In this document: positions 9,426 to 54,325 of the stretch, piece after piece
Layout: each line of letters begins with the position of its first letter
Position numbering within the stretch: position 1 is the first letter of the stretch
Assembly: GCF_032444005.1 (NCBI RefSeq)
Contig: NC_091286.1
Span: 433,814,001 to 433,878,000, forward strand
Direction of reading: 5' to 3'
DNA from: Ranitomeya imitator
Lineage: Eukaryota
DNA: 64,000 bases
Program-made: the position numbers and the translations under genes
Notes under the pieces: generated by a model
What the model was told of the DNA's origin: nothing
Seen by the model: only the letters and a program-made list of their open reading frames with translations
The model's database searches: none

Positions 9426-9815
9426 ATTATTTCTTCTGGCGTTGCCACCCTTAGTCATGCTCTATTTTCTAGTATATTTACCGTTTGGCAGCGGTAATGG
9501 ATTGACGCACGCTCATAATTGGAATTACAGCCTACATTTTCGCAAGGTGAGGCTTTTCTTTTACCAATTTTGATTTTCCAAGTTTCTTCAGACAAAAAAA
9601 TACTAAAAAATTATTTATACGAGCATATAAGTAAAATAGATTTTCCATACAAATGAATAGGAAGAGTTTTACAAATATTTTTGTAGTGGTTATTAAAGAT
9701 AATAGACTCCAAAAAACCTTCAAAAACATTGTGTTAACAGTCTTAATAAGGGGTTGTCCAGTAGTGATCTAACCCTTTACGCAATTTCCCAATGATAAGG
9801 TGATCATTAGGGGTC

Positions 9816-10562
9816 TGTTGTGGATTCTGTTTTTGGGCTCCCTCTGGTGGTTACAGATGGTACTGGGTGACTTGTGTTCTCTGCGGTCTCTGGTGTCCAC
9901 CTGTTCTATCAGGATATGGGAGTTTCCTATTTAACCTGGCTTTCTTGTCATTTCCTCGCCGGCGATCAATGTAATCAGTGTGTCTTGTTACCTCTGCTTT
10001 CCGCTTCTGTAATCATCAGGACAAGCTAAGTTTTATTTTCCTGTTCCACGTTTTGCTTTATTTTTGTTTTAGTCCAGCTTGCAGTTATGTGATTCCTTGT
10101 TGCTGGTTGCTCTAGTGGGCTGATATTACTCCTCATGTTCCATGAGTTGGCACATGAGTTCAAGTAATTTCAGGATGGTTTTTTGTAGGGTTTTTCGCTG
10201 ACCACGCAGTTCACTTTTGTATCCTCTGCTATCTAGTTTTAGCGGGCCTCATTTTACTGAATCTGTTTTCATTACTACGTATGTGCTTTCCTCTCATTTC
10301 ACCGTCATTACATGTGGGGGGCTGCTATTTCTGTGGGGTGTTTCTCTGGAGGCAAGAGAGGTCTTTGTTTCTTCTAATAGGGGAAGCTAGTCCTTCGGCT
10401 GGCGCGAGACGTCTAGAATCATCGTAGGCACGTTCCCCGGCTACTGCTAGTGTTGTGAATTAGGTTCAGGATCGCGGTCAGCTCAGTTTCCATCACCCTA
10501 GAGCTTGTTCTGTTTTTTTTGTGCTTGTCCTTTTGTGATCCCCTGCCATTGGGATCATGACA
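9816..10562 (+). repeat. 5' LTR of element 1
   Basis: Direct repeat of 14803-15549; TATA-like tatttaa at 9928-9934. Confidence 0.97.
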
Positions 10563-10564
10563 GT

Positions 10565-10573
10565 ATCGCCGGC
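10565..10573 (+). promoter_or_regulatory. Primer-binding site of element 1 (self-priming type)
   Basis: ATCGCCGGC starts 2 nt after the LTR end, lacks the TGG tRNA signature and is the exact reverse complement of GCCGGCGAT at 9958-9966. Confidence 0.75.
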
Positions 10574-10740
10574 CCGAAAAGTGGTAATCGTATTGCTGAA
10601 GTAGGAGGAAAAGTAGTCTGAGGAAGGTTTTTTTTTTTTTTTTTCCCTTCCCTCAGAGTTTGCTGCCTAGCCTTAATTGCAGCCTGGCTGCGTCTTACCT
10701 CCTCTTAATCCTTGAATGGCTCTGACCTCAGCTGTTTATC

Positions 10741-13700
10741 ATGGACGTCCAGAGTTTGGCTTCCAGCCTGAATAATCTTGCTGCTAAGGTTCAAAATATA
10801 CAAGATTTTGTTGTACATGCTCCTATGTCTGAACCTAGAATTCCTATCCCAGAGTTTTTTTTCTGGAGATAGATCTAGTTTTCTGAATTTTAGGAACAAT
10901 TGCAAGTTGTTTCTTTCTTTGAAATCTCGCTCCTCTGGAGACCCTGCTCAGCAAGTCAAGATTGTAATATCTTTCCTGCGGGGTGACCCTCAGAATTGGG
11001 CGTTTGCATTGGCACCAGGGGATCCTGCGTTGCTCAATGTGGATGCGTTTTTTCTGGCATTGGGTTTGCTCTATGAGGAACCTAACCTAGAGATTCAGGC
11101 TGAAAAAGCTTTATTGGCTCTCTCTCAGGGGCAAGATGAAGCAGAAATATATTGTCAGAAATTTCGGATATGGTCGGTGCTTACTCAGTGGAATGAGTGC
11201 GCTCTGACTGCAAGATTCAGAGATGGCATTTCTGAGGCCATTAAAGATGTTATGGTGGGGTTCCCGGCGCCTACAGGTCTGAATGAGTCCATGACTATGG
11301 CTATTCAGATTGATCGGCGTTTACGGGAGCGCAAACCTGTGCACCATTTGGCGGTGTCTTCTGAACAGGCACCTGAGACAATGCAATGTGATAGAATTCA
11401 GTCCAGAAGTGAACGGCAAAACTATAGGCGGAAAAATGGGTTGTGTTTTTATTGTGGTGATTCAGCTCATGTTATATCAGCATGCTCTAAACGCACAAAA
11501 AAGGTTGATAAGTCTGTTGCCATTAGTACTTTACAGTCTAAGTTCATTCTGTCTGTGACTCTGATTTGTTCATTATCAGCCATTTCCGTCGATGCCTATG
11601 TGGATTCAGGCGCTGCCCTGAGTCTTATGGATTGGTCATTTGCCAACCGCTGTGGGTTTAGTCTGGAGCCTCTGGAAGTCCCTATTCCTTTGAAAGGAAT
11701 TGACTCTACACCTTTGGCTATGAATAAACCTCAGTACTGGACACACGTGACCATGCGTATGACTCCCGTTCATCAGGAGGTGATTCGCTTCCTGGTACTG
11801 TATAATTTACATGATGTCTTAGTGCTTGGTCTGCCATGGTTACAAACTCATAACCCAGTCTTGGACTGGAAAACGATGTCTGTGTTAAGCTGGGGATGTC
11901 AGGGGGTTCATGATGATGCACCTCCGATTTCTATCGCTTCATCTACTCCTTCTGAGGTTCCTGTATTTTTGTCTGATTATCGGGATGTTTTTGAGGAGCC
12001 TAAACTCAATTCGCTTCCTCCTCACAGGGATTGCGATTGTGCTATAGATTTGATTCCTGGCAGTAAATTTCCTAAAGGTCGTTTGTTCAATCTGTCAGTG
12101 CCAGAGCATACTGCTATGCGGGAGTATGTTAAGGAGTCCTTGGAAAAGGGACATATCCGTCCATCTTCGTCTCCTTTGGGAGCAGTTTTTTTTTTCGTGG
12201 CCAAAAAAGATGGTTCCTTGAGGCCTTGTATAGATTACCGTCTTTTGAATAAGATTACGGTCAAATATCAGTATCCTTTGCCATTGTTGACTGATTTGTT
12301 CGCTCGCATTAAGGGGGCTAAATGGTTCACTAAGATTGATCTTCGGGGTGCGTATAATCTTGTGCGGATTAAGCAGGGTGATGAGTGGAAAACCGCATTT
12401 AATACGCCTGAGGGCCATTTTAAGTATTTGGTGATGCCTTTTGGACTTTCTAATGCTCCTACTGTCTTCCAGTCCTTTATGCACGATATTTTCCGTGAAT
12501 ATCTGGATAAATTTATGATTGTGTATTTGGATGATGTTTTGTTTTTTTCTGATGACTGGGAGTCCCATGTTCAGCAGGTCAGGAAGGTGTTTCAGGTCCT
12601 GCGGGCCAATTCTTTGTTTGTAAAAGGTTCAAAGTGTCTCTTTGGAGTCCAGAAGATTTCTTTTTTGGGGTATATTATTTCCCCTTCTAATATTGAGATG
12701 GATCCCGTCAAGGTTCAAGCTATTTGTGACTGGACGCAGCCTACATCTCTTAAGAGTCTACAGAAGTTCTTGGGCTTTGCTAATTTTTATCGTCGTTTCA
12801 TAACTAATTTTTCTAGTGTTGTTAAGCCTTTGACGGATCTGACTAAGAAGGGTGCTGATGTTGCTGATTGGTCTCCTGCGGCTGTGGAGGCCTTTCAGGA
12901 ACTTAAGCGCCGGTTTTCTTCTGCTCCTGTGTTGCGTCAGCCAGATGTTTCGCTTCCTTTTCAGGTTGAGGTTGATGCTTCCGAGATTGGAGCGGGGGCG
13001 GTTTTGTCACAGAGAAGCTCCGATTGCTCGGTGATGAAGCCATGTGCGTTCTTTTCTAGAAAGTTTTCGCCTACTGAGCGGAATTATGATTTTGGTAATC
13101 GGGAGCTTTTGGCCATGAAGTGGGCATTTGAGGAGTGGCGTCATTGGCTTGAGGGTGCTAGACATCGTGTGGTGGTCTTGACTGATCACAAAAATCTGAT
13201 TTACCTTGAGTCTGCCAAGCGTCTGAATCCTAGACAGGCTCGTTGGTCACTGTTTTTCTCCCGTTTCGATTTTGTGGTTTCATACCTGCCAGGTTCAAAG
13301 AATCTGAAGGCGGATGCTCTTTCTAGGAGTTTTGTGCCTGATTCCCCTGGAAATTCTGAGCCCACTGGTATCCTTAGGGATGGGGTGATTTTGTCGGCTG
13401 TCTTCCCAGACTTGCGACGTGCTTTGCAGGAGTTTCAGGCGGATAAACCTGATCGTTGTCCGCCTGAAAGACTGTTTGTTCCGGATAATTGGACCAGTAG
13501 AGTCATCTCCGAGGTCCATTCTTCTGCGTTGGCAGGTCATCCTGGAATATTTGGTACTAGAGACTTGGTGGCCAGGTCTTTTTGGTGGCCTTCCTTGTCG
13601 AGGGATGTGCGTTCTTTTGTGCAGTCTTGTGAAGTTTGCGCTCGGGCTAAGCCTTGCTGTTCTCGGGCCAGTGGATTGTTGTCACCTTTGCCTATCCCGA

Positions 13701-14857
13701 AGAGGCCTTGGACGCACATTTCCATGGACTTTATTTCGGATCTCCCTGTCTCTCAAAAAATGTCCGTCATCTGGGTTGTGTGTGACCGCTTTTCTAAGAT
13801 GGTTCATCTGGTACCCTTGCCTAAGTTACCTTCCTCCTCTGAGTTGGTCCCTCTGTTTTTTCAGAACGTGGTTCGTTTGCATGGGATTCCGGAGAAGATT
13901 GTTTCTGACAGGGGATCCCAGTTTGTGTCTAGATTTTGGCGGACGTTCTGTGCTAAGATGGGCATTGATTTGTCCTTTTTGTCTGCATTCCATCCTCAGA
14001 CGAATGGCCAGACGGAACGAACTAATCAGACCTTGGAAACTTATTTAAGGTGTTTTGTTTCTGCTGATCAAGATGACTGGGTTACCTTTTTGCCGCTTGC
14101 CGAATTTGCCCTTAATAATCGGGCTAGTTCTGCTACCTTGGTTTCTCCTTTCTTTTGTAATTCGGGGTTTCATCCTCGTTTTTCCTCTGGTCAGGTGGAG
14201 CCTTCTGATTGTCCTGGAGTGGACATGGTGGTGGATAGGTTGCATCAGATTTGGAGTCATGTGGTGGACAATTTGAAGTTGTCCCAGGAGAGGGCTCAGC
14301 AGTTTGCTAATCGCTGTCGCCGCGTGGGTCCTCGACTTCGTGTTGGGGACTTGGTGTGGTTGTTTTCTCGTTTTGTTCCTATGAAGGTCTCTTCTCCTAA
14401 GTTCAAGCCTCGGTTCATCGGTCCCTATAGGATCTTGGAAATTCTTAACCCTGTGTCGTTTCGTTTGGCTCTCCCGGCATCGTTTGCTATTCATAATGTG
14501 TTCCATCGGTCGTTGTTGCGGAGGTATGAGGTACCTGTTGTTCCTTCGCTTGAGCCTCCTGCTCCGGTGCTGGTGGAGGGAGAATTGGAGTATGTTGTGG
14601 AGAAGATCTTGGATTCTCGTGTTTCCAGACGGAAACTTCAGTATTTGGTCAAGTGGAAGGGTTATGGTCAGGAGGATAATTCTTGGGTGGTTGCCTCTGA
14701 TGTTCATGCTGCTGATTTGGTCCGTGCATTTCATAGGGCTCATCCTGGTCGCCCTGGTGGTTCTCGTGAGGGTTCGGTGACCCCTCCTCAAGTGGGGGGT
14801 ACTGTTGTGGATTCTGTTTTTGGGCTCCCTCTGGTGGTTACAGATGGTACTGGGTGA
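10741..14857 (+). pseudogene. Gag-Pol polyprotein of element 1 with a +1 frameshift near the start
   Basis: Likely ATG at 10741 (MDVQSL..., aligns with element 2 MDIRSL...). A T8 run at 10855-10862 shifts the frame (TAG at 10870). The downstream frame has CCHC knuckle CFYCGDSAHVISAC, protease VDSGA, RT YLDD, RNase H, HHCC + D-D-E integrase, GPY motif and a chromodomain. Confidence 0.92.
14791..14802 (+). promoter_or_regulatory. Polypurine tract of element 1
   Basis: agtggggggtac immediately upstream of the 3' LTR TGT. Confidence 0.8.
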
Positions 14858-15549
14858 CTTGTGTTCTCTGCGGTCTCTGGTGTCCACCTGTTCTATCAGG
14901 ATATGGGAGTTTCCTATTTAACCTGGCTTTCTTGTCATTTCCTCGCCGGCGATCAATGTAATCAGTGTGTCTTGTTACCTCTGCTTTCCGCTTCTGTAAT
15001 CATCAGGACAAGCTAAGTTTTATTTTCCTGTTCCACGTTTTGCTTTATTTTTGTTTTAGTCCAGCTTGCAGTTATGTGATTCCTTGTTGCTGGTTGCTCT
15101 AGTGGGCTGATATTACTCCTCATGTTCCATGAGTTGGCACATGAGTTCAAGTAATTTCAGGATGGTTTTTTGTAGGGTTTTTCGCTGACCACGCAGTTCA
15201 CTTTTGTATCCTCTGCTATCTAGTTTTAGCGGGCCTCATTTTGCTGAATCTGTTTTCATTACTACGTATGTGCTTTCCTCTCATTTCACCGTCATTACAT
15301 GTGGGAGGCTGCTATTTCTGTGGGGTGTTTCTCTGGAGGCAAGAGAGGTCTTTGTTTCTTCTAATAGGGGAAGCTAGTCCTTCGGCTGGCGCGAGACGTC
15401 TAGAATCATCGTAGGCACGTTCCCCGGCTACTGCTAGTGTTGTGAATTAGGTTCAGGATCGCGGTCAGCTCAGTTTCCATCACCCTAGAGCTTGTTCTGT
15501 TTTTTTTGTGCTTCTCCTTTTGTGATCCCCTGCCATTGGGATCATGACA
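14803..15549 (+). repeat. 3' LTR of element 1
   Basis: 744/747 identical to the 5' LTR by manual comparison. Confidence 0.97.
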
Positions 15550-15887
15550 GGGGTCTTCCAGTGGTGATCCTCAATGATCAACTGCTATCATCACAGAAAG
15601 AGGTGGTTACTAGGAATGAGCGGACGCAGGGCCGGCGTCAGCACCCGGCATACCCAGGCAAGTGCCGGGGCCCTGGCGAGACAGGGGACCCATTCAGGGC
15701 CGGCGTTAGGGGCAGGCAGCTAGGGCCCCCGCTCCCCCGGGGGCCCTCAGCTAGTGGCACATCACGCAGCCGCAATGGGGCCTCTGTGAGGCAGGGGGGC
15801 TCGCCTGTCACCAGGGCCACCTCCCCTGCCGCCGCATTGAACTATAACGGCGTCTGCCAGTAAAGTTCAAAGCAAATGATGGAGGAG

Positions 15888-16690
15888 TGTTATGAGAGGC
15901 AATTCAGTATCACAATGGACATGGAGGTCAGAGCACATACAGTGATCTGACAATAACCCAAAATAATAGAACGAGCTCTGAGATGTGGGAACTCTGCAAA
16001 CCGCAATCCCTGCTCCTCTCCAAACACAACTAGAGGCAGCCGTGGATTGCGCCTAACGCTACCTATGCAACTCGGCACAACCTGAGAAACTAACTAGCCT
16101 GAAGATAGAAAAAATAAGCCTACCTTGCCTCAGAGAAATACCCCAAAGGAAAAGGCAGCCCCCCACATATAATGACTGTGAGTAAGATGAAAAGACAAAC
16201 GTAGGGATGAAATAGATTCAGCAAAGTGAGGCCCGATATTCTAGACAGAACGAGGATAGGAAAGATAACTTTGTGGTCTACACAAAACCCTAAAGAAAAC
16301 CACGCAAAGGGGCAAAAAGACCCTCTGTACCGAACTAACGGCACGGAGGTACACCCTTTGCGTCCCAGAGCTTCCAGCAAAACAAATAGACAAGCTGGAC
16401 AGAAAAAATAGCAACAAATAGCAAAGAAGCACTTAGCTATGCAGAGCAGCAGGCCACAGGAATGATCCAGAGAAACACAAGTCCAACACTGGAACATTGA
16501 CAGGAAGCATGAATCAAAGCATTTGGTGGGGTTAAGTAGAGAAGCACCTAACGACCTCACCAGATCACCTGAGGGAGGAAACTCAGAAGCAGCAGTACCA
16601 GTTTCCTCCACAAACGGAAGCTCCCAGAGAGAATCAGCCGAAGTACCACTTGTGACCACAGGAGGGAGCTCTGCCACAGAATTCACAACA
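15888..16690 (-). repeat. 3' LTR of element 2
   Basis: Direct repeat of 20887-21689. Confidence 0.97.
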
Positions 16691-19600
16691 GTACCCCCCC
16701 TTGAGGAGGGGTCACCGAACCCTCACCAGAGCCCCCAGGCCGACCAGGATGAGCCACATGAAAGGCACGAACAAGATCGGGAGCATGAACATCAGAGGCA
16801 AAAACCCAGGAATTATCCTCCTGAGCATAACCCTTCCATTTAACCAGATACTGGAGTTTCCGTCTTGAAACACGAGAATCCAAAATCTTCTCCACAATAT
16901 ACTCCAATTCCCCCTCCACCAAAACCGGGGCAGGAGGGTCAACAGATGGAACCATAGGTGCCACGTATCTCCGCAACAATGACCTATGGAAGACGTTATG
17001 TATGAAAAAAGAATCTGGGAGGGTCAGACGAAAAGACACAGGATTAATAACCTCAGAAATCCTATAAGGACCAATGAAACGAGGTTTAAACTTCGGAGAG
17101 GAAACCTTCATAGGAATATGACGAGAAGATAACCAAACCAGATCCCCAACACGAAGTCGGGGACCCACACGGCGTCTGCGATTAGCGAAACGTTGAGCCT
17201 TCTCCTGGGACAAGGTCAAATTGTCCACTACATGAGTCCAAATCTGCTGCAACCTGTCCACCACGGTATCCACACCAGGACAGTCCGAAGACTCAACCTG
17301 TCCTGAAGAGAAACGAGGATGGAACCCAGAATTGCAGAAAAATGGCGAAACCAAGGTAGCCGAGCTGGCCCGATTATTATGGGCGAACTCAGCCAAAGGC
17401 AAAAAGGACACCCAGTCATCCTGATCGGCAGAAACAAAGCATCTCAGATAGGTTTCCAAGGTCTGATTGGTTCGTTCGGTCTGGCCATTAGTCTGAGGAT
17501 GAAAAGCCGAGGAAAAAGACAAGTCAATGCCCATCCTACCACAAAAGGCTCGCCAAAACCTCGAAACAACCTGGGAACCTCTGTTAGAAACGATATTCTC
17601 TGGAATGCCATGCAAACGAACCACATGATGGAAGAACAATGGCACCAAATCAGAGGAGGAAGGCAACTTGGACAAGGGTACCAGATGGACCATCTTAGAA
17701 AAGCGATCACAGACCACCCAAATGACTGACATCTTTTGAGAGACGGGAAGATCTGAAATAAAATCCATAGAGATATGTGTCCAAGGTCTCTTCGGGACCG
17801 GCAAGGGCAAAAGCAACCCACTGGCACGAGAACAGCAGGGCTTAGCCCGAGCACAAATCCCACAGGACTGCACAAAAGAACGCACATCCCGCGACAGAGA
17901 CGGCCACCAAAAGGATCTAGCCACTAACTCTCTGGTACCAAAGATTCCAGGATGACCAGCCAACACCGAACAATGAACCTCAGAGATCACTTTATTTGTC
18001 CACCTATCCGGGACAAACAGTTTCTCCGCTGGAGAACGATCAGGTTTATTAGCCTGAAATTTTTGCAGGACCCGCCGCAAATCAGGGGAGATGGCAGACA
18101 CAATTACTCCTTCCTTGAAGATACCCGCCGGCTCAGATAAACCCGGAGAGTCGGGCACAAAACTCCTAGACAGAGCATCCGTCTTCACATTTTTAGAGCC
18201 CGGAAGGTACGAAATCACAAAGTCAAAACGGGCGAAAAACAGCGACCAACGAGCCTGTCTAGGATTCAAATGCTTAGCAGACTCGAGATAAGTCAGGTTC
18301 TTATGATCAGTCAATACCACCACGCGATGCTTAGCTCCTTCAAGCCAATGACGCCACTCCTCGAATGCCCACTTCATGGCCAGCAACTCTCGGTTGCCCA
18401 CATTATAATTCCGCTCAGCAGGCGAAAACTTCCTGGAAAAAAAAGCGCATGGTTTCATCACTGAACAATCAGAACCTCTCTGCGACAAAACAGCCCCTGC
18501 TCCAATCTCAGAAGCATCAACCTCGACCTGGAACGGAAGAGAAACATCAGGTTGACACAACACAGGGGCAGAAGAAAAACGACGCTTCAACTCTTGAAAA
18601 GCTTCCACAGCAGCAGAAGACCAATTGACCAAATCAGCACCCTTCTTGGTCAAATCGGTCAATGGTTTGGCAATACTAGAAAAATTGCAGATGAAGCGAC
18701 GATAAAAATTAGCAAAGCCCAGGAACTTTTGCAGACTTTTCAGAGATGTCGGCTGAGTCCAATCATGGATGGCTTGGACCTTAACAGGATCCATCTCGAT
18801 AGTAGAAGGGGAAAAGATGAACCCCAAAAATGAAACCTTCTGCACACCAAAGAGACACTTTGATCCCTTTACAAACAAAGAGTTAGCACGCAGGACCTGA
18901 AAAACCGTTCTGACCTGTTTCACATGAGACTCCCAATCATCCGAGAAGATCAAAATGTCATCCAAGTACACAATCAGGAATTTATCCAGGTACTCTCGGA
19001 AGATGTCATGCATAAAGGACTGAAACACTGATGGAGCATTGGCAAGTCCGAATGGCATCACTAGATACTCAAAATGACCCTCGGGCGTATTAAATGCCGT
19101 TTTCCATTCATCGCCTCGCCTGATTCTCACCAGATTATACGCACCACGAAGATCAATCTTGGTGAACCAACTAGCCCCCTTAATCCGAGCAAACAAATCA
19201 GATAACAAAGGCAAGGGGTACTGAAATTTAACAGTGATCTTATTAAGAAGGCGATAATCTATACAAGGTCTCAGCGAACCATCCTTTTTGGCTACAAAAA
19301 AGAACCCTGCTCCTAATGGCGACGATGACGGGTGAATATGCCCCTTCTCCAGGCATTCCTTCACATAACTGCGCATAGCGGTGTGCTCAGGCACGGATAA
19401 ATTAAACAGTCGACCTTTTGGGAATTTACCACCAGGAATCAAATTGATAGCACAATCACAATCCCTATGCGGAGGTAGGGCATCGGACTTGGGCTCATCA
19501 AATACATCCCGGTAATCAGACAAGAACTCTGGAACCTCAGAAGGGGTGGATGACGAAATTGACAAAAATGGAACATCACCATGTACCCCCTGACAACCCC

Positions 19601-20750
19601 AGCTGGACACCGACATGGATTTCCAATCCAATACTGGATTATGGGCTTGTAGCCATGGCAACCCCAACACGACCACATCATGCAGATTATGCAACACCAG
19701 AAAGCGAATATCCTCCTGATGTGCAAGAGCCATGCACATGGTCAGCTGGGTCCAGTATTGAGACTTATTCTTGGCCAAAGGCGTAGCATCAATACCTCTC
19801 AATGGAATAGGACACTGCAAGGGCTCCAAGAAAAACCCACAACGCTTAGCATATTCCAAGACCATCAAATTCAGAGCAGCGCCTGAATCCACAAACGCCA
19901 TGACAGAATATGATGACAAAGAGCAGATCAAGGTAACGGACAGAAGAAATTTTGACTGTACCGTACCAATGGTGGCAGACCTAGCGAACCGCTTAGTGCG
20001 CTTAGGACAATCAGAGATGGCATGAGTGGAATCACCACAGTAGAAACACAGCCCATTCAGACGTCTGTGTTCTTGCCGTTCAACTCTGGTCAAAGTCCTA
20101 TCGCACTGCATAGGCTCAGGTTTAAGCTCAGGTAATACCGCCAAATGGTGCACAGATTTACGCTCACGCAAGCGTCGACCAATCTGAATAGCCAAAGACA
20201 TAGACTCATTCAAACCAGCAGGCATAGGAAATCCCACCATGACATCCTTAAGGGCTTCAGAGAGACCCTTTCTGAACATAGCTGCCAGCGCAGATTCATT
20301 CCATTGAGTGAGCACTGACCATTTTAGAAATTTCTGGCAAAATACCTCTATCTCATCCTGACCCTGACAAAGAGCCAGCAAATTCTTTTCTGCCTGATCC
20401 ACTGAATTAGGCTCATCGTACAGCAATCCGAGTGCCAGGAAAAACGCACTGATATTACTCAATGCAGGATCTCCTGGCGCAAGAGAAAATGCCCAGTCCT
20501 GAGGGTCGCCGCGCAAAAAAGAAATAATAATCAAAACCTGTTGAACTGGATCACCAGAGGAACAAGGTTTCAAGGCCAGAAATAACTTACAATTATTTTT
20601 GAAACTCAGAAACTTAGTTCTATCTCCAAAAAACAAATCAGGAATAGGAATTCTTGGTTCTAACATAGATTTCTGATCAATAGTGTCTTGAATCTTTTGT
20701 ACTCTTGCCGAGAGCTGATCCACAAATGAAGACAGACTTCTAATGTCCAT
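16683..20750 (-). CDS. Gag-Pol polyprotein of element 2 (1355 aa), integrase catalytic Asp changed to Asn
   Basis: Open frame from ATG 20750 (MDIRSLSS) with CCHC knuckle, VDSGA, YLDD, RNase H, integrase (SMDFI / SNRG instead of SDRG / TERTN) and chromodomain; the stop lies inside the 3' LTR. Confidence 0.92.
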   Translation of the reverse strand: MDIRSLSSFVDQLSARVQKIQDTIDQKSMLEPRIPIPDLFFGDRTKFLSFKNNCKLFLALKPCSSGDPVQQVLIIISFLRGDPQDWAFSLAPGDPALSNISAFFLALGLLYDEPNSVDQAEKNLLALCQGQDEIEVFCQKFLKWSVLTQWNESALAAMFRKGLSEALKDVMVGFPMPAGLNESMSLAIQIGRRLRERKSVHHLAVLPELKPEPMQCDRTLTRVERQEHRRLNGLCFYCGDSTHAISDCPKRTKRFARSATIGTVQSKFLLSVTLICSLSSYSVMAFVDSGAALNLMVLEYAKRCGFFLEPLQCPIPLRGIDATPLAKNKSQYWTQLTMCMALAHQEDIRFLVLHNLHDVVVLGLPWLQAHNPVLDWKSMSVSSWGCQGVHGDVPFLSISSSTPSEVPEFLSDYRDVFDEPKSDALPPHRDCDCAINLIPGGKFPKGRLFNLSVPEHTAMRSYVKECLEKGHIHPSSSPLGAGFFFVAKKDGSLRPCIDYRLLNKITVKFQYPLPLLSDLFARIKGASWFTKIDLRGAYNLVRIRRGDEWKTAFNTPEGHFEYLVMPFGLANAPSVFQSFMHDIFREYLDKFLIVYLDDILIFSDDWESHVKQVRTVFQVLRANSLFVKGSKCLFGVQKVSFLGFIFSPSTIEMDPVKVQAIHDWTQPTSLKSLQKFLGFANFYRRFICNFSSIAKPLTDLTKKGADLVNWSSAAVEAFQELKRRFSSAPVLCQPDVSLPFQVEVDASEIGAGAVLSQRGSDCSVMKPCAFFSRKFSPAERNYNVGNRELLAMKWAFEEWRHWLEGAKHRVVVLTDHKNLTYLESAKHLNPRQARWSLFFARFDFVISYLPGSKNVKTDALSRSFVPDSPGLSEPAGIFKEGVIVSAISPDLRRVLQKFQANKPDRSPAEKLFVPDRWTNKVISEVHCSVLAGHPGIFGTRELVARSFWWPSLSRDVRSFVQSCGICARAKPCCSRASGLLLPLPVPKRPWTHISMDFISDLPVSQKMSVIWVVCDRFSKMVHLVPLSKLPSSSDLVPLFFHHVVRLHGIPENIVSNRGSQVVSRFWRAFCGRMGIDLSFSSAFHPQTNGQTERTNQTLETYLRCFVSADQDDWVSFLPLAEFAHNNRASSATLVSPFFCNSGFHPRFSSGQVESSDCPGVDTVVDRLQQIWTHVVDNLTLSQEKAQRFANRRRRVGPRLRVGDLVWLSSRHIPMKVSSPKFKPRFIGPYRISEVINPVSFRLTLPDSFFIHNVFHRSLLRRYVAPMVPSVDPPAPVLVEGELEYIVEKILDSRVSRRKLQYLVKWKGYAQEDNSWVFASDVHAPDLVRAFHVAHPGRPGGSGEGSVTPPQGGVLL

Positions 20751-20875
20751 CGCTACACCTGTGTACTGAACCACCCAAATGTCTAGGGGAAAAAAAAGAC
20801 AAAACACAAAGCCAAGAAAAAAAAATGGTCTCAGAACTTCTTTTTTCCCTCTATTGAGAATCATTAGTACTTTTG

Positions 20876-20884
20876 GCTTCCTGT
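20876..20884 (-). promoter_or_regulatory. Primer-binding site of element 2 (self-priming type)
   Basis: ACAGGAAGC (element sense), 2 nt after the LTR end, is exactly complementary to GCTTCCTGT at 21507-21499. Confidence 0.75.
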
Positions 20885-20886
20885 AC

Positions 20887-21689
20887 TGTTATGAGAGGCA
20901 ATTCAGTATCACAATGGACATGGAGGTCAGAGCACATACAGTGATCTGACAATAACCCAAAATAATAGAACGAGCTCTGAGACGTGGGAACTCTGCAGAC
21001 CGCAATCCCTGATCCTCTCCAAACACAACTAGAGGCAGCCGTGGATTGCGCCTAACGCTACCTATGCAACTCGGCACAGCCTGAGAAACTAACTAGCCTG
21101 AAGATAGAAAAAATAAGCCTACCTTGCCTCAGAGAAATACCCCAAAGGAAAAGGCAGCCCCCCACATATAATGACTGTGAGTAAGATGAAAAGTCAAACG
21201 TAGGGATGAAATAGATTCAGCAAAGTGAGGCCCGATATTCTAGACAGAACGAGGATAGGAAAGATAACTTTGCGGTCTACACAAAACCCTAAAGAAAACC
21301 ACGCAAAGGGGCAAAAAGACCCTCCGTACCGAACTAACGGCACGGAGGTACACCCTTTGCGTCCCAGAGCTTCCAGCAAAACAAATAGACAAGCTGGACA
21401 GAAAAAATAGCAACAAATAGCAAAGAAGCACTTAGCTATGCAGAGCAGCAGGCCACAGGAATGATCCAGAGAAACACAAGTCCAACACTGGAACATTGAC
21501 AGGAAGCATGAATCAAAGCATTAGGTGGGGTTAAGTAGAGAAGCACCTAACGACCTCACCAGATCACCTGAGGGAGGAAACTCAGAAGCAGCAGTACCAG
21601 TTTCCTCCACAAACTGAAGCTCCCAGAGAGAATCAGCCGAAGTACCACTTGTGACCACAGGAGGGAGCTCTGCCACAGAATTCACAACA
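20887..21689 (-). repeat. 5' LTR of element 2
   Basis: Direct repeat of 15888-16690; TATA-like tacttaa at 21537-21531. Confidence 0.97.
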
Positions 21690-21925
21690 GAGGAGAGAGC
21701 GTCACCTGACGCTCCCTCTCCCATCATTCCCCACTCTGTCTCAGACACTGTCGCTGTGGGTGCGCGATGACATCATCGCGCACTCACTGTGCGTCAGGCA
21801 GTGCAGCGGCAGCCGCCGAGAACGGAGCAGGGAGCAGTGCGGGCACGTTGAGAGGTGAGGAGTGTTTTTTTTTTGTAACTATAACAGTGAGTACTGGACT
21901 ATGGGGCCATTCTTGGGGGGAGAGG

Positions 21926-32140: not shown

Positions 32141-34113
32141 TTATCTCATACTTGACTGGATTTTAAATTCTACATTAAGTCCTTTTGGTTTTAAAGTGTT
32201 CAACTCGTAAATCCATCTCAATTCTAATTTTTTTAGAAGGCATATTCTATCCCCTCCTCTCCTCTGTATGGGAACCCTATCTATTATTTTACATTTAAAG
32301 GGAACCTGTCACCCCGTTTTTTGAGATTGAGCTATAAATACTGTTAAATAGGGCCTGCGCTGTGTGTTCCTATAGTGTATGTAGTGTACCCCGATTCCCT
32401 ATGTATGCTGAGAAATAACTTACCAAAGTCGCCGTTTTCGCCTGTCAATCAGGCTGGTCAGGTCGGGAGGGCGTGGTGACATCGGTGGTTCTTCCTCAGC
32501 TTTACGTTGGTGGCGTAGTGGTGTAGTGGTGAAGACACAGCGCGCGATCTGCGCTGTAATCCCTTGCATCGGTGGGGGCGGCCATCTTCCTGGGGCCGCG
32601 CGTGCGCAGATCGAGTGCTCTGCTGCACGGGGCTTCAGGAAAATGGCCGCGGGATGCCGCGCGTGCGCATTAGAGATCGCGGCGGCCATTTTCCTGAAGC
32701 CCCGTGCAGCAGAGCACTCGATCTGCGCACGCGCGGCCCCAGGAAGATGGCCGCCCCCACCGATGCAAGGGATTACAGCGCAGATCGCGCGCTGTGTCTT
32801 CACCACTACGCCACCAACGTAAAGCTGAGGAAGAACCACCGATGTCACCACGCCCTCCCGACCTGACCAGCCTGATTGACAGGCGAAAACGGCGACTTTG
32901 GTAAGTTATTTCTCAGCATACATAGGGAATCGGGGTACACTACATACACTATAGGAACACACAGCGCAGGCCCTATTTAACAGTATTTATAGCTCAATCT
33001 CAAAAAACGGGGTGACAGGTTCCCTTTAAGGTCTTTTTCTGTATGTTGAAACTCTGTAAAATGTTTCGAAACCGGAAGATCTAATCGCTTTTTCCTTATT
33101 GAGTGCCGATGGTTATTTAAACGCATTTTTAACTCACAGGTCGTTTCCCCTATATACCACAATTTACAAGGACATTCAAGTAGGTACACTACATAATCAG
33201 AGTTGCATGTCAAAAAATGTTTGATTGTATATACCTTATTTGTCTCTGGATGTTTAAATGTAGAGCCTTTTAATATGTTTGGGCAGTTTACACAGGACAA
33301 ACATGGAAAGCAACCTCTTTGAGTCCTGCCTGTAATCGTGGTCTGACTGGAATTTTTTAAAGAACCAATATCTGCTTTGACCACATAGTCTTTGATGTTT
33401 TTAGCCCTACGATATGAAAATAATGGGGGCTCCCCTAGTTCCTTAATCCTTGGTAAGCAATTGCCTAACATCCCCCAATGTTTTTTAATAATGTTTGCCA
33501 CCGCACCACTTTCCTCCGAGTAAGTCATCACACAAGGAACTCTACTCAATCTTCTTTTTCCATGATCATTGTTTCTTAATAGACCTTTTCGATCTTTTTG
33601 CATAACTTTATTTCTAGCAATGTCAATCACATTTTGAGGATATTTCCTTTTTAGAAATTTTTTTGCTAAATTATCCATAACTCCATCCATCTCTTTGTCC
33701 TCTTTCACAATCCTACGCACTCTTAGAAGTTGACTAAAAGGTATTGACCTCACCATACTGCGTGGATGTTGGCTGTCATATGTAAGGAGATTGTATGTGA
33801 AAGAGACAGATAAGAACAATGTAGTTGTTAATACTCCCTCGTTCTGTGTCACAGATACGTCTAGAAATTGTATTTTAGTTCTGGAGAAGTTTAAAGTAAA
33901 TTTAATTGTATCATCTATTCCATTTAGGAACTGATGAAAATTATTCAACTCTTCTTCAGTATCTTTCCATAGGAGGAAGACATCGTCTATGTATCTCCAC
34001 CACACCAGAACATGCCGGAAGTGGTGGGACACATAGACGAGGTCTTCCTCCAAGGTACTCATTACCAGATTTGCATATGCGGGGGTCATATTGGCCCCCA
34101 TGGCTGTACCTCT
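32141..34113 (-). pseudogene. Penelope RT C-terminal half + GIY-YIG endonuclease, split by a MITE
   Basis: GTAMGAN...RYIDDVF...VVY..YIGET..MRLNNH. After removing 32299-33029 the frame continues EKDLK-CKIIDRVP...ELRWIYELNTLKPKGLNVEF...MR* (TAA at 32143-32141). Confidence 0.88.
32299..33025. mobile_element. Kolobok/T2-type foldback element (727 bp)
   Basis: TTAA TSD; 344-bp arms perfectly complementary apart from an 8-bp duplication in the left arm; 31-bp loop. Confidence 0.92.
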
Positions 34114-34489
34114 TACAGATGCGCCTTTTCTGGGGTGGCTGGGGCAGATATTTTTAGCCAGGGAGGGGGGCAATAACCATGGTCCCTCTCTATGCTATTA
34201 ATATCTGCCCTCAGTCACTGGTTTTCCCTCTCTGGGGAGAAAATTGTGCGGGAGCCCACGCCAGTTTTTTCTGTGAATTAACACTTTATTTTAACACCTA
34301 GAGCTCCCATATTTTGCACACACACACACACACACTACTAACATTATTAGTGAGAGATATCAAAAAATATAACGGATATGTCATGGTTTCCTGTATGTAA
34401 ACCATGTCTCATATCCTGTCGGGTTCGGTAAGTATTTAGCAAAAGCTGACAATTGAATTACCGGCTTTTATGCTATTTAGCTCTGTATG

Positions 34490-34797: not shown

Positions 34798-36433
<1,636 letters not shown>

Positions 36434-50930: not shown

Positions 50931-51410
50931 CTGAGAGGCACAGAAGCAGCCATCTGCAGACCGGACATAACTGCAAGAGAAGTATGCTGCCTTCCAGGTG
51001 CGATGATCAAGGATGTGACCGATAGGATACCAAAGCTCTTTAGCTCCAAGGACGTCCACCCATTTCTTCTGATACATGTTGGCACCAATGACACGGCAAG
51101 GAAGGACCTACCGACAATCTGCAAAGACTTTGAAGAGTTGGGGAAGAAAGTAAAGGAACTGGATGCACAGGTAGTTTTTTCTTCTATCCTTCCAGTAGAC
51201 GGGCATGGCACCAGGAGATGGAACAGGATCCTTGATGCAAACAACTGGCTAAGACGATGGTGCAGACAACAAGGATTCGGATTCCTGGACCACGGTGTGA
51301 ATTACTTGTACGATGGACTCCTCGCCAGAGACGGACTACACCTCAACAAACCTGGGAAACACACATTCGCCAGAAGACTCGCTACACTCATCAGGAGGGC
51401 GTTAAACTAG
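50931..51410 (+). pseudogene. CR1 ORF1 C-terminal SGNH/GDSL esterase domain, 5'-truncated
   Basis: LRGTE...LIHVGTND...ARDGLHL; the truncation removes the GDS(L) nucleophile motif expected just upstream. Confidence 0.85.
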
Positions 51411-54325
51411 AAGAAGAGGGGACGGGAAGAAAAACATTAGACTTGAACAAAGAAGATCCAGGAATACATACTCAGAAGGGAGGTAAGAACATTTCTAAAA
51501 CAATCCACAGTGAGGAGATTGGAACAAAACAAAATCCTCTAAACTGCATGCTCGCAAACGCCAGAAGCCTGACAAACAAGATGGAAGAACTAGAAGCAGA
51601 AATATCTACAGGTAACTTTGACATAGTGGGAATAACCGAGACATGGTTAGATGAAAGCTATGACTGGGCAGTTAACTTACAGGGTTACAGTCTGTTTAGA
51701 AAGGATCGTAAAAATCGGAGAGGAGGAGGGGTTTGTCTCTATGTAAAGTCTTGTCTAAAGTCCACTTTAATGGAGGATATTAGCGAAGGAAATGAGGATG
51801 TCGAGTCCATATGGGTCGAAATTCATGGAGGGAAAAATGGTAACAAAATTCTCATTGGGGTCTGTTACAAACCCCCAAATATAACAGAAACCATGGAAAG
51901 TCTACTTCTAAAGCAGATAGATGAAGCTGCAACCCATAATGAGGTCCTGGTTATGGGGGACTTTAACTACCCGGATATTAACTGGGAAACAGAAACCTGT
52001 GAAACCCATAAAGGCAACAGGTTTCTGCTAATAACCAAGAAAAATTATCTTTCACAATTGGTGCAGAATCCAACCAGAGGAGCAGCACTTTTAGACCTAA
52101 TACTATCTAATAGACCTGACAGAATAACAAATCTGCAGGTGGTCGGGCATCTAGGAAATAGCGACCACAATATTGTACAGTTTCACCTGTCTTTCACTAG
52201 GGGGACTTGTCAGGGAGTCACAAAAACACTGAACTTTAGGAAGGCAAAGTTTGACAAGCTTAGAGATGCCCTTAATCTGGTAGACTGGGACAATATCCTC
52301 AGAAATAAGAATACAGATAATAAATGGGAAATGTTTAAGAACATCCTAAATAGGCAGTGTAAGCGGTTTATACCTTGTGGGAATAAAAGGACTAGAAATA
52401 GGAAAAACCCAATGTGGCTAAACAAAGAAGTAAGACAGGCAATTAACAGTAAAAAGAAAGCATTTGCACTACTAAAGCAGGATGGCACCATTGAAGCTCT
52501 AAAAAACTATAGGGAGAAAAATACTTTATCTAAAAAACTAATTTAAACTGCCAAAAAGGAAACAGAGAAGCACATTGCTAAGGAGAGTAAAACTAATCCC
52601 AAACTGTTCTTCAACTATATCAATAGTAAAAGAATAAAAACTGAAAATGTAGGCCCCTTAAAAAATAGTGAGGAAAGAATGGTTGTAGATGACGAGGAAA
52701 AAGCTAACATATTAAACACCTTCTTCTCCACGGTATTCACGGTGGAAAATGAAATGCTAGGTGAAATCCCAAGAAACAATGAAAACCCTATATTAAGGGT
52801 CACCAATCTAACCCAAGAAGAGGTGCGAAACCGGCTAAATAAGATTAAAATAGATAAATCTCCGGGTCCGGATGGCATACACCCACGAGTACTAAGAGAA
52901 CTAAGTAATGTAATAGATAAACCATTATTTCTTATTTTTAGGGACTCTATAGCGACAGGGTCTGTTCCGCAGGATTGGCGCATAGCAAATGTGGTGCCAA
53001 TATTCAAAAAGGGCTCTAAAAGTGAACCTGGAAATTATAGGCCAGTAAGTCTAGCCTCTATTCTTGGTAAAATATTTGAAGGGTTTCTGAGGGATGTTAT
53101 TCTGGATTATCTCAATGAGAATAACTGTTTAACTCCATATCAGCATGGGTTTATGAGAAATCGCTCCTGTCAAACCAATCTAATCAGTTTTTATGAAGAG
53201 GTAAGCTATAGGCTGGACCACGGTGAGTCATTGGACGTGGTATATCTCGATTTTTCCAAAGCGTTTGATACCGTGCCGCACAAGAGGTTGGTACACAAAA
53301 TGAGAATGCTTGGTCTGGGGGAAATTGTGTGTAAATGGGTTAGTAACTGGCTTAGTGATAGAAAGCAGAGGGTGGTTATAAATGGTATAGTCTCTAACTG
53401 GGTCGCTGTGACCAGTGGGGTACCGCAGGGGTCAGTATTGGGACCTGTTCTCTTCAACATATTCATTAATGATCTGGTAGAAGGTTTACACAGTAAAATA
53501 TCGATATTTGCAGATGATACAAAACTATGTAAAGCAGTTAATACAAGAGAAGATAGTATTCTGCTACAGATGGATCTGGATAAGTTGGAAACTTGGGCTG
53601 AAAGGTGGCAGATGAGGTTTAACAATGATAAATGTAAGGTTATACACATGGGAAGAAGGAATCAATATCACCATTACACACTGAATGGGAAACCACTGGG
53701 TAAATCTGACAGGGAGAAGGACTTGGGGATCCTAGTTAATGATAAACTTACCTGGAGCAGCCAGTGCCAGGCAGCAGCTGCCAAGGCAAACAGGATCATG
53801 GGGTGCATGAAAAGAGGTCTGGATACACATGATGAGAGCATTATACTGCCTCTGTACAAATCCCTAGTTAGACCGCACATAGAGTACTGTGTCCAGTTTT
53901 GGGCACCGGTGCTCAGGAAGGATATAATGGAACTAGAGAGAGTACAAAGGAGGGCAACAAAATTAATAAAGGGGATGGGAGAACTACAATACCCAGATAG
54001 ATTAGCGAAATTAGGATTATTTAGTCTAGAAAAAAGACGACTGAGGGGCGATCTAATAACCATGTATAAGTATATAAGGGGACAATACAAATATCTCGCT
54101 GAAGATCTGTTTATACCAAGGAAGGTGACGGGCACAAGGGGGCATTCTTTGCGTCTGGAGGAGAGAAGGTTTTTCCACCAACATAGAAGAGGATTCTTTA
54201 CTGTTAGGGCAGTGAGAATCTGGAATTGCTTGCCTGAGGAGGTGGTGATGGCGAACTCAGTCGAGGGGTTCAAGAGAGGCCTGGATGTCTTCCTGGAGCA
54301 GAACAATATTGTATCATACAATTAG
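51407..54325 (+). pseudogene. CR1 ORF2 (APE endonuclease + RT) with one premature stop
   Basis: One reading frame (first ATG 51548); NARS, ITETWL, MGDFN, SDH; RT PQGSVLGP, FADD; TAA at 52544-52546 is the only interruption. Confidence 0.93.

What the first reader, a model, noticed from the sequence alone, without database searches (positions are those of the whole stretch)
9928..21537. Covarying self-priming signal in two frog chromoviruses (tRNA-independent reverse transcription)
Seen: neither element has a TGG tRNA-type PBS. Element 1: TATTTAA-23 nt-GCCGGCGAT-caatgt (9958-9966), with PBS gt-ATCGCCGGC (10565-10573). Element 2: TACTTAA-23 nt-GCTTCCTGT-caatgt (21507-21499), with PBS gt-ACAGGAAGC (20884-20876). 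The spacing is identical. The two 9-mers differ at 5 of 9 positions, and every change is compensated in that element's own PBS. Known: S. pombe Tf1 primes from the 5' end of its own RNA, and this has been proposed for the vertebrate Tf1/sushi group. Inference: transcription starts at the 9-mer, which folds onto the PBS and is cut to form the primer. The divergent 9-mers could act as family-specific priming codes.
Basis: partly seen in the sequence, partly recalled or inferred. Interest (0 to 1): 0.82.

Follow-up and report, generated by a model that had tools for sequence, protein, structure and literature searches.

The report
Self-priming frog retrotransposons, drifting primer pair
Two young jumping genes in a frog genome, and their relatives in four lineages there, carry a primer site that pairs exactly with a short stretch of their own terminal repeat instead of showing a tRNA signature, so they likely start copying themselves with their own RNA end, a trick shown for yeast Tf1 and already proposed for this group in vertebrates.

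Summary
Observation confirmed. The window holds two recent, full-length Ty3/gypsy chromoviruses. In each, a 9-mer starting 30 bases after a TATA-like box is the exact complement of the PBS. The genome has more than 10,000 such LTR-PBS junctions. Four lineages give 25 PBS types, each complementary to its own LTR at 30-31 bases after a TATA-like motif; cross-type matches were 3 of 600. In a sample not chosen for pairing, 31 of 34 copies pair perfectly. This is Tf1/sushi-type self-priming, shown for yeast Tf1 and proposed in print for vertebrates: a new member of a known kind. The scan noted the same signature in other genomes. Start site and cleavage stay untested, as no raw reads were available. 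The 'family code' idea is weak: the primer middle changes about as fast as neighbouring LTR bases, and RT-less elements carry their own pairs. The more interesting lead is that rare variants are compensated within one copy (8 of 54) and half-way states exist. This suggests the PBS is rewritten from the primer during replication (about 55%).

The parts
9810..9815 (+). Element 1, left target-site duplication (6 bp; right copy 15550-15555)
9816..10562 (+). Element 1, 5' LTR (747 bp, 99.6% alike to 3' LTR)
9928..9934 (+). Element 1, TATA-like box, 30 bases before the predicted start
   Evidence: function inferred
9958..9966 (+). Element 1, predicted self-primer (predicted first 9 bases of the RNA)
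   Evidence: exact complement of PBS; 9 of 9 pairs in the unconstrained MFE, mean pair probability 0.89
10535..10558 (+). Element 1, predicted U5 hairpin just before the PBS; not conserved in the folds of other families
10563..10564 (+). Element 1, 2-base spacer between LTR and PBS; reverse complement of the 2 bases between PPT and 3' LTR (14801-14802), as expected for symmetric cDNA ends trimmed by integrase
   Evidence: role inferred
10565..10573 (+). Element 1, PBS (no TGG start)
10741..14857 (+). Element 1, gag-pol. The long open frame is 10772-14857; the apparent gag start at 10741 lies in another frame, with the break in the gag 5' part near 10850
14790..14799 (+). Element 1, polypurine tract
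14803..15549 (+). Element 1, 3' LTR; predicted source of the 9-mer for both LTRs of a daughter copy
   Evidence: role inferred
20887..21689 (-). Element 2, 5' LTR (803 bp, 98.9% alike to 3' LTR); 6-bp duplication at 21690-21695 and 15882-15887
21531..21537 (-). Element 2, TATA-like box
   Evidence: function inferred
21499..21507 (-). Element 2, predicted self-primer
   Evidence: exact complement of PBS; 9 of 9 pairs in the MFE, mean pair probability 0.98
20876..20886 (-). Element 2, 2-base spacer (20886-20885) and PBS (20884-20876)
16683..20750 (-). Element 2, single gag-pol ORF: Gag with CCHC, protease-like region, RT, RNase H, integrase, SH3, chromodomain
16694..16702 (-). Element 2, polypurine tract
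15888..16690 (-). Element 2, 3' LTR

Best explanation
Both elements are recent vertebrate chromoviruses whose PBS is the exact complement of a 9-mer in their own LTR, and they likely prime reverse transcription with the first nine bases of their own RNA, as Tf1 does. Shown: the pairing, its position 30-31 bases after a TATA-like motif in four lineages, and its covariation. Inferred: RNA polymerase II starts at the first base of the primer; the 5' end folds onto the PBS 390-640 bases downstream; the element's RNase H would cut after base 9 or 10; RT would extend across the 2-base spacer into U5. Also inferred (about 55% on its own): the pair drifts because it is self-correcting. A daughter would take the 9-mer of both LTRs from the parent's 3' LTR, while plus-strand synthesis would copy the primer into the PBS. 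One LTR mutation would then become a compensated pair in two rounds. The differing sequences are likely drift markers, not a recognition code; only the first three bases and the last base look constrained.
For: 25 types, each complementary to its own LTR at the same offset; cross-type matches 3 of 600 (representatives were picked for perfect pairing). Samples not picked for pairing: 31 of 34, 26 of 30, 21 of 30 (clade B), 24 of 30 (clade C). The 5' edge stays at TATA+30/31 while primer length is 9 or 10. The helix (8 or more pairs) is in the unconstrained MFE for 14 of 20 representatives. Rare PBS variants are compensated in the same copy: 5 of 26 and 3 of 28 readable. Half-way copies exist, with both LTRs changed and the PBS parental. 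The primer middle changes at about the spacer's rate. Tf1 RT copies its self-primer into DNA in about half of cDNAs (PMC11042837, passage). The RT tree puts the elements among fish and amphibian chromoviruses.
Against: No start-site, cleavage or strong-stop data. The helix is absent from the MFE in 6 of 20 representatives, with a forced cost of up to 9.5 kcal/mol. The three-duplex 'pretzel' of Tf1 was not recovered as a conserved structure. One clade C family has a 4-base spacer and a different last primer base. Against the rewriting step: Ty1 and Ty3 are reported to inherit the PBS strictly (PMC7472051 section 4.3); 0 of 25 readable variants at PBS position 7 are compensated; most both-LTR variants at primer position 7 keep the parental PBS, with 2 of 10 compensated; and the LTR tree is too poorly resolved to count independent origins.
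Confidence: 0.88

Rival explanations
1. Self-priming as above, but with the PBS inherited strictly as in Ty1/Ty3. Compensation needs two independent mutations, and selection then amplifies the repaired lineages. (A rival to the rewriting step only.)
For: Ty3, the closest solved RT, is reported to inherit its PBS. Most rare variants are uncompensated. The compensated position-5 variant (11 of 11 readable copies where the LTR variant occurs as a pair of hits) may be one expanded lineage. Several steps can pass through G-U wobble, and wobble copies are seen.
Against: Several steps between established types are transversions with no wobble path. Two-step compensated series exist inside young subfamilies. 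The primer middle is not slower than the spacer.
Confidence: 0.4
2. The 9-mers act as family-specific codes that restrict priming, RT use or recombination to one family.
For: Major families do differ, by a mean of 4.3 of 9 positions between types. Priming between co-packaged RNAs would be type-restricted in principle (inference).
Against: In the Tf1 model pairing is within one RNA, so no code is needed. Types one base apart occur in lineages 1-2% apart. A hybrid copy exists (L078/L311). RT-less elements carry their own pairs and must borrow an RT, though unsampled autonomous partners are not excluded (one search lists further types).
Confidence: 0.12
3. Priming by a host tRNA, tRNA half or other small RNA; the LTR match is secondary.
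For: The tRNA comparison could not be completed: the tRNA search returned mostly tandem arrays at a few places.
Against: None of the 25 PBS types starts with TGG. Low-copy variants track the element's own LTR. About 25 different host primers would be needed.
Confidence: 0.04
4. The complementarity is a structural or historical inverted repeat (packaging, translation control, duplication) unrelated to priming.
For: In clade C the PBS runs straight into the gag start codon, so the helix could also affect translation.
Against: The helix occupies the PBS position 2 bases after the LTR, no other primer site is visible, and its 5' edge is fixed relative to the TATA-like box.
Confidence: 0.06

Closest known systems
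Tf1/Tf2 of Schizosaccharomyces pombe, Tj1 of S. japonicus, Tosmo/Tcry elements (10.1101/2022.12.06.519325, passages; PMC4600332, passages)
   Same: Chromovirus; PBS just after the 5' LTR complementary to the predicted 5' end of the RNA, downstream of a TATA box; no tRNA signature.
   Different: Primer here is 9 or 10 bases (11 in Tf1, recalled). Gag has CCHC, which the fission-yeast elements lack. The pretzel was not confirmed. There is no experiment on the frog elements. More than 10,000 junctions and at least 25 pair types occur in one genome.
[quoted passage not shown] 2001, seen only as cited
   Same: Vertebrate chromoviruses for which self-priming and the pretzel were proposed from sequence. 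The RT tree groups these elements with fish and amphibian relatives, with fungal ones outside.
   Different: No named reference sequence was in the tree. Clade A has one gag-pol frame (the group mostly frameshifts) and 6-bp target duplications. I found no paper with within-genome covariation or half-way states, but Butler 2001 and the Levin papers were not readable.
PBS rewriting by the tRNA primer in retroviruses and ERVs (PMC7472051 section 4.3, read whole)
   Same: A primer copied into the plus-strand PBS and inherited 50:50 is the model for the rewriting step.
   Different: There the primer is a fixed host tRNA, so copying pulls the PBS back to one sequence. With a self-primer it would let the pair drift. 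The same paper says Ty1 and Ty3 do not do this.
Tcn1 (moss) and TAR/Houba (plant copia) predicted self-primers (PMC6317226, passages)
   Same: Self-primer predicted from complementarity between LTR and PBS.
   Different: Other hosts and, for TAR, another superfamily.

Membership tests
Ty3/gypsy chromovirus | Order RT-RNase H-integrase with a C-terminal chromodomain, between TG...CA LTRs with a PPT | tested here: met
Tf1/sushi group (V-clade) | RT phylogeny with vertebrate and fungal chromoviruses | tested here: inconclusive
   nested among fish and amphibian relatives (support 1.0 for the vertebrate group), fungi outside; no named reference (sushi-ichi, Amn, Tf1) and no tRNA-primed plant clade in the tree
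Tf1/sushi group (V-clade) | No tRNA-type PBS; PBS complementary to own LTR downstream of the TATA box | tested here: met
Tf1/sushi group (V-clade) | Three-duplex 'pretzel' around the PBS | tested here: inconclusive
   central helix in 14 of 20 MFE folds; a short stack next to it and a U5 hairpin in element 1; no conserved third duplex; no covariation test of the flanks
Tf1/sushi group (V-clade) | Gag CCHC motif (non-fission-yeast members) | tested here: met
   visible in translations; feature
Tf1-type self-priming | Transcript starts at the first primer base | not testable with these tools
   Only contigs were offered; the TATA+30/31 geometry is indirect
Tf1-type self-priming | RNase H-dependent cleavage and pairing-dependent priming | not testable with these tools
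   needs bench data
tRNA-primed LTR elements | PBS starting TGG, complementary to a tRNA 3' end | tested here: not met
   0 of 25 types start with TGG
half-tRNA-primed LTR elements | PBS complementary to an internal tRNA stretch | not tested
   The tRNA set obtained was too narrow and the comparison was not carried out

The most novel reading that the evidence does not exclude
In these vertebrate chromoviruses the primer and its binding site form a self-correcting pair. The element rewrites its own PBS from its own 5' end at replication, so the priming helix drifts almost freely, and the genome preserves the half-way and completed states. Tens of megabases of a giant frog genome would then have been built by elements that need no tRNA and offer no fixed PBS target for tRNA-fragment silencing. 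It would also make PBS inheritance in self-priming elements testable from one assembly.
Probability: 0.5. Interest if true: 0.62.

Novelty: new member of a known kind. Interest (0 to 1): 0.42.

Why it matters
In the papers I could read, self-priming outside fission yeast is described as predicted or implicated from complementarity, not shown. Here one genome gives 25 covarying pair types in four lineages about 60% alike in RT, plus rare within-copy compensations. That is strong comparative support for a proposal made in 2001. The half-way states bear on an open mechanistic point: whether a self-primer is copied into the PBS (as in retroviruses) or not (as in Ty1/Ty3). Gypsy elements make up about 1 Gb in a related poison frog (PMC6278860, passages), so tRNA-independent priming may matter for genome expansion; that link is speculation. 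The basic mechanism is known, so surprise is moderate.

Tried and rejected
Start-site mapping: no RNA holder on record and only contigs were offered; the lay of four runs gave no start or end sites. tRNA control: the Rfam search returned 63 hits, mostly tandem arrays; the match test was not done. The PBS-side pattern mostly hit unrelated repeats without gag and without a positioned complement; these and L085/L087 were dropped as non-elements. Variant searches at primer positions 2-3 hit positions that are pyrimidines in all 25 types and gave no compensation. A conserved pretzel was not found. The LTR tree had too little resolution to count origins. The tree has four long branches (L073, L076, L077, L081), probably from insertions, so its change counts are rough. 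A per-element cross-table of the listings was not computed. Primary papers (Levin 1995, Lin and Levin 1997 and 1998, Atwood-Moore 2006, Esnault and Levin 2015, Wilhelm 2001) were not held, and Butler 2001 was seen only as a citation; bioRxiv supplements are closed. These may already show vertebrate primer-PBS pairs.
Full report
Observation. The window holds two full-length LTR elements tail to tail. Element 1 spans 9816-15549 (+) with LTRs 99.6% alike. Element 2 spans 21689-15888 (-) with LTRs 98.9% alike. Both have 6-bp target duplications. Both encode RT, RNase H, integrase, a Tf2-type SH3 and a chromodomain above Pfam cut-offs; Gag and protease score weakly. Their internal regions are 80% alike in DNA. 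Element 2 has one open gag-pol frame; in element 1 the apparent gag start is out of frame with the long ORF. In each, a 9-mer starting 30 bases after a TATA-like box is the exact complement of the 9 bases that follow the LTR after a 2-base spacer. That spacer is the reverse complement of the 2 bases between PPT and 3' LTR, which fits symmetric cDNA ends and a primer ending exactly there (inference). All 60 protein hits to the gag region are named Ranitomeya imitator, so the host is likely a poison frog.

Covariation in the own genome. A pattern built from the PBS flanks gave 10,586 hits against 419 for the reversed control. Of the first 30 loci, 27 had the TATA-anchored motif; 26 paired 9 of 9 and one had a single mismatch. 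Of the other three, one paired 9 of 9 behind an altered TATA box and two showed no gag match and no complement. The 30 closest copies of element 1, itself included, paired exactly in 26. A pooled sample that excluded the targets of variant searches paired perfectly in 31 of 34, with one wobble and two mismatches. Searches with distant Gag and Pol proteins found more lineages about 57-64% alike in RT. Clade B had an exact 9-base complement at the promoter site in 21 of 30 loci. Clade C had a 10-base complement in 13 of the 14 loci with a readable junction out of 20 examined, and in 24 of 30 further loci. A group of 3.1-3.6 kb elements (D) keeps gag-protease and the chromodomain end but has no RT or integrase core (one copy checked; no RT hit inside the others). 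It carries its own 9-base pairs. One representative for each of 25 types, picked for perfect pairing, shows the complement starting 30 or 31 bases after a TATA-like motif. The script found the motif in 24 and it is visible in the printed flank of the 25th; the motif list was widened by hand. The first base is the same in 25 of 25, positions 2 and 3 are pyrimidines in 25 of 25, the last base is the same in 24 of 25, and the middle is free. Cross-type exact matches were 3 of 600. One clade C family has a 4-base spacer. In listings for the element 1 group, PBS-side and LTR-side patterns gave 6,435 and 11,024 hits with 0 control hits.

Structure. Folding the natural stretch from the predicted start to 60 bases past the PBS put 8 or more primer-PBS pairs in the unconstrained MFE for 14 of 20 representatives, including both window elements (mean pair probability 0.89 and 0.98). 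In 6 the helix was absent and cost 0.2-9.5 kcal/mol to force. The start was chosen at the primer, so this shows feasibility, not proof. A conserved three-duplex pretzel was not recovered.

How the pair evolves. Rare PBS variants were collected from the PBS side. At position 7, 0 of 25 readable loci (30 examined) were compensated; this position faces primer position 3, a pyrimidine in all types. At positions 5 and 3, 5 of 26 and 3 of 28 readable loci (30 each) had the compensating base in their own 5' LTR. Independent mutation at about 1% divergence would give well under one (arithmetic). From the LTR side, copies with the same variant in both LTRs fall in two classes. Some keep the parental PBS: 4 of 4 readable at primer position 3, and 8 of 10 at position 7 in one background, one of them only partly read. 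Others are compensated: 11 of 11 readable (12 examined) at position 5, three of them one tandem array and three with the two LTR hits 7-16 kb apart; and 4 of 4 double variants at positions 6-7. By eye, the listings show one more rare compensated copy (C1, 23.6 Mb) and one mismatch between two established types (C1, 17.9 Mb); no count was made. On a rough tree, primer positions 3-8 changed 14 times over 6 sites, the spacer 61 times over 23 and the downstream 20 bases 77 times. This is what one expects if daughters take the 9-mer from the parent's 3' LTR and the PBS can be rewritten from the primer. Tf1 RT does copy its primer into DNA in about half of cDNAs (PMC11042837, passage), and retroviruses inherit the primer copy 50:50; but Ty1 and Ty3 are reported not to (PMC7472051 section 4.3). 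Amplification of a few twice-mutated lineages is not excluded, because the LTR tree could not count origins. I put rewriting at about 55%.

The code idea. Types one base apart sit in lineages 1-2% apart, a hybrid exists (L078/L311), and RT-less elements have their own pairs. I sampled only part of the B/D diversity (one search lists more types), so an autonomous partner with the same pair is not excluded. The constant features (first three bases, last base, short spacer) look like promoter and enzyme constraints shared by all families (inference).

Comparison with what is known. Self-priming is described as a common feature of the Tf1/sushi group of fungi and vertebrates (10.1101/2022.12.06.519325, passages; PMC6317226, passages; PMC4600332, passages). 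The RT tree groups clades A-C with fish and amphibian elements, with fungal ones outside, but holds no named reference. The elements therefore work like Tf1 by every sequence test available and are very probably V-clade members. Searches found no paper on within-genome covariation or PBS inheritance in self-priming elements. The primary papers were not readable, so this is weak evidence of absence. Other papers seen: PMC3601003, PMC4340606, PMC5006619, PMC2864245 and PMC6278860 (passages). Earlier scan notes report the same signature in other genomes and none in this genome; I did not test them.

Verdict. The feature is real, strongly supported by covariation, and of a known kind. Interest is 0.42, carried mainly by the scale of the covariation and the visible half-way states, which make PBS inheritance testable. 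Start site, cleavage, the tRNA-fragment control and other species remain open.

Noticed in passing
window 9810-9815/15550-15555 and 21690-21695/15882-15887; L177, L304, L306, L308, L314: Clade A makes 6-bp target-site duplications (7 of 8 copies with both ends resolved), while clades B, C and D show 5 bp wherever one was found. Six is unusual for Ty3/gypsy (recalled; one search listed no paper with the term).
   Followed up: partly
L169, L170, L171, L172, L173, L180; L273: Several clade C families have LTRs ending in TA (one in GA) instead of CA, in both LTRs, with a 5-bp duplication fixing the end: a non-canonical integrase end in young copies.
   Followed up: partly
L235, L242, L243, L246, L257, L258, L261: Non-autonomous 3.1-3.6 kb elements with gag-protease and the chromodomain end but no RT or integrase core; one type shares about 82% of the last 250 LTR bases with clade B.
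   Followed up: partly
L151-L156, L168-L174, L204-L233: In clade C the PBS runs almost directly into the apparent gag start codon, so the priming helix may also gate translation.
   Followed up: no
G000 C1:36.69-36.70 Mb, C1:259.00-259.01 Mb, C4:258.885-258.900 Mb: Tandem arrays of elements at about 5 kb spacing, recalling the tandem Tf insertions made without integrase (PMC11042837).
   Followed up: no
L172; L171: L172 lacks most of the PBS through a short deletion and L171 has a deletion just after it; both have LTRs about 98-99% alike.
   Followed up: no
G000 C4:660.78-660.84 Mb: A tRNA gene tandem array with a period of about 1008 bp.
   Followed up: no
window 51236-54325 (+); 34965-35798 (-); 32977-34194 (-): A LINE-type endonuclease and RT split by a stop, a Tc1-type transposase, and a weak RT remnant; a long near-perfect inverted repeat at 32295-33029.
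   Followed up: no
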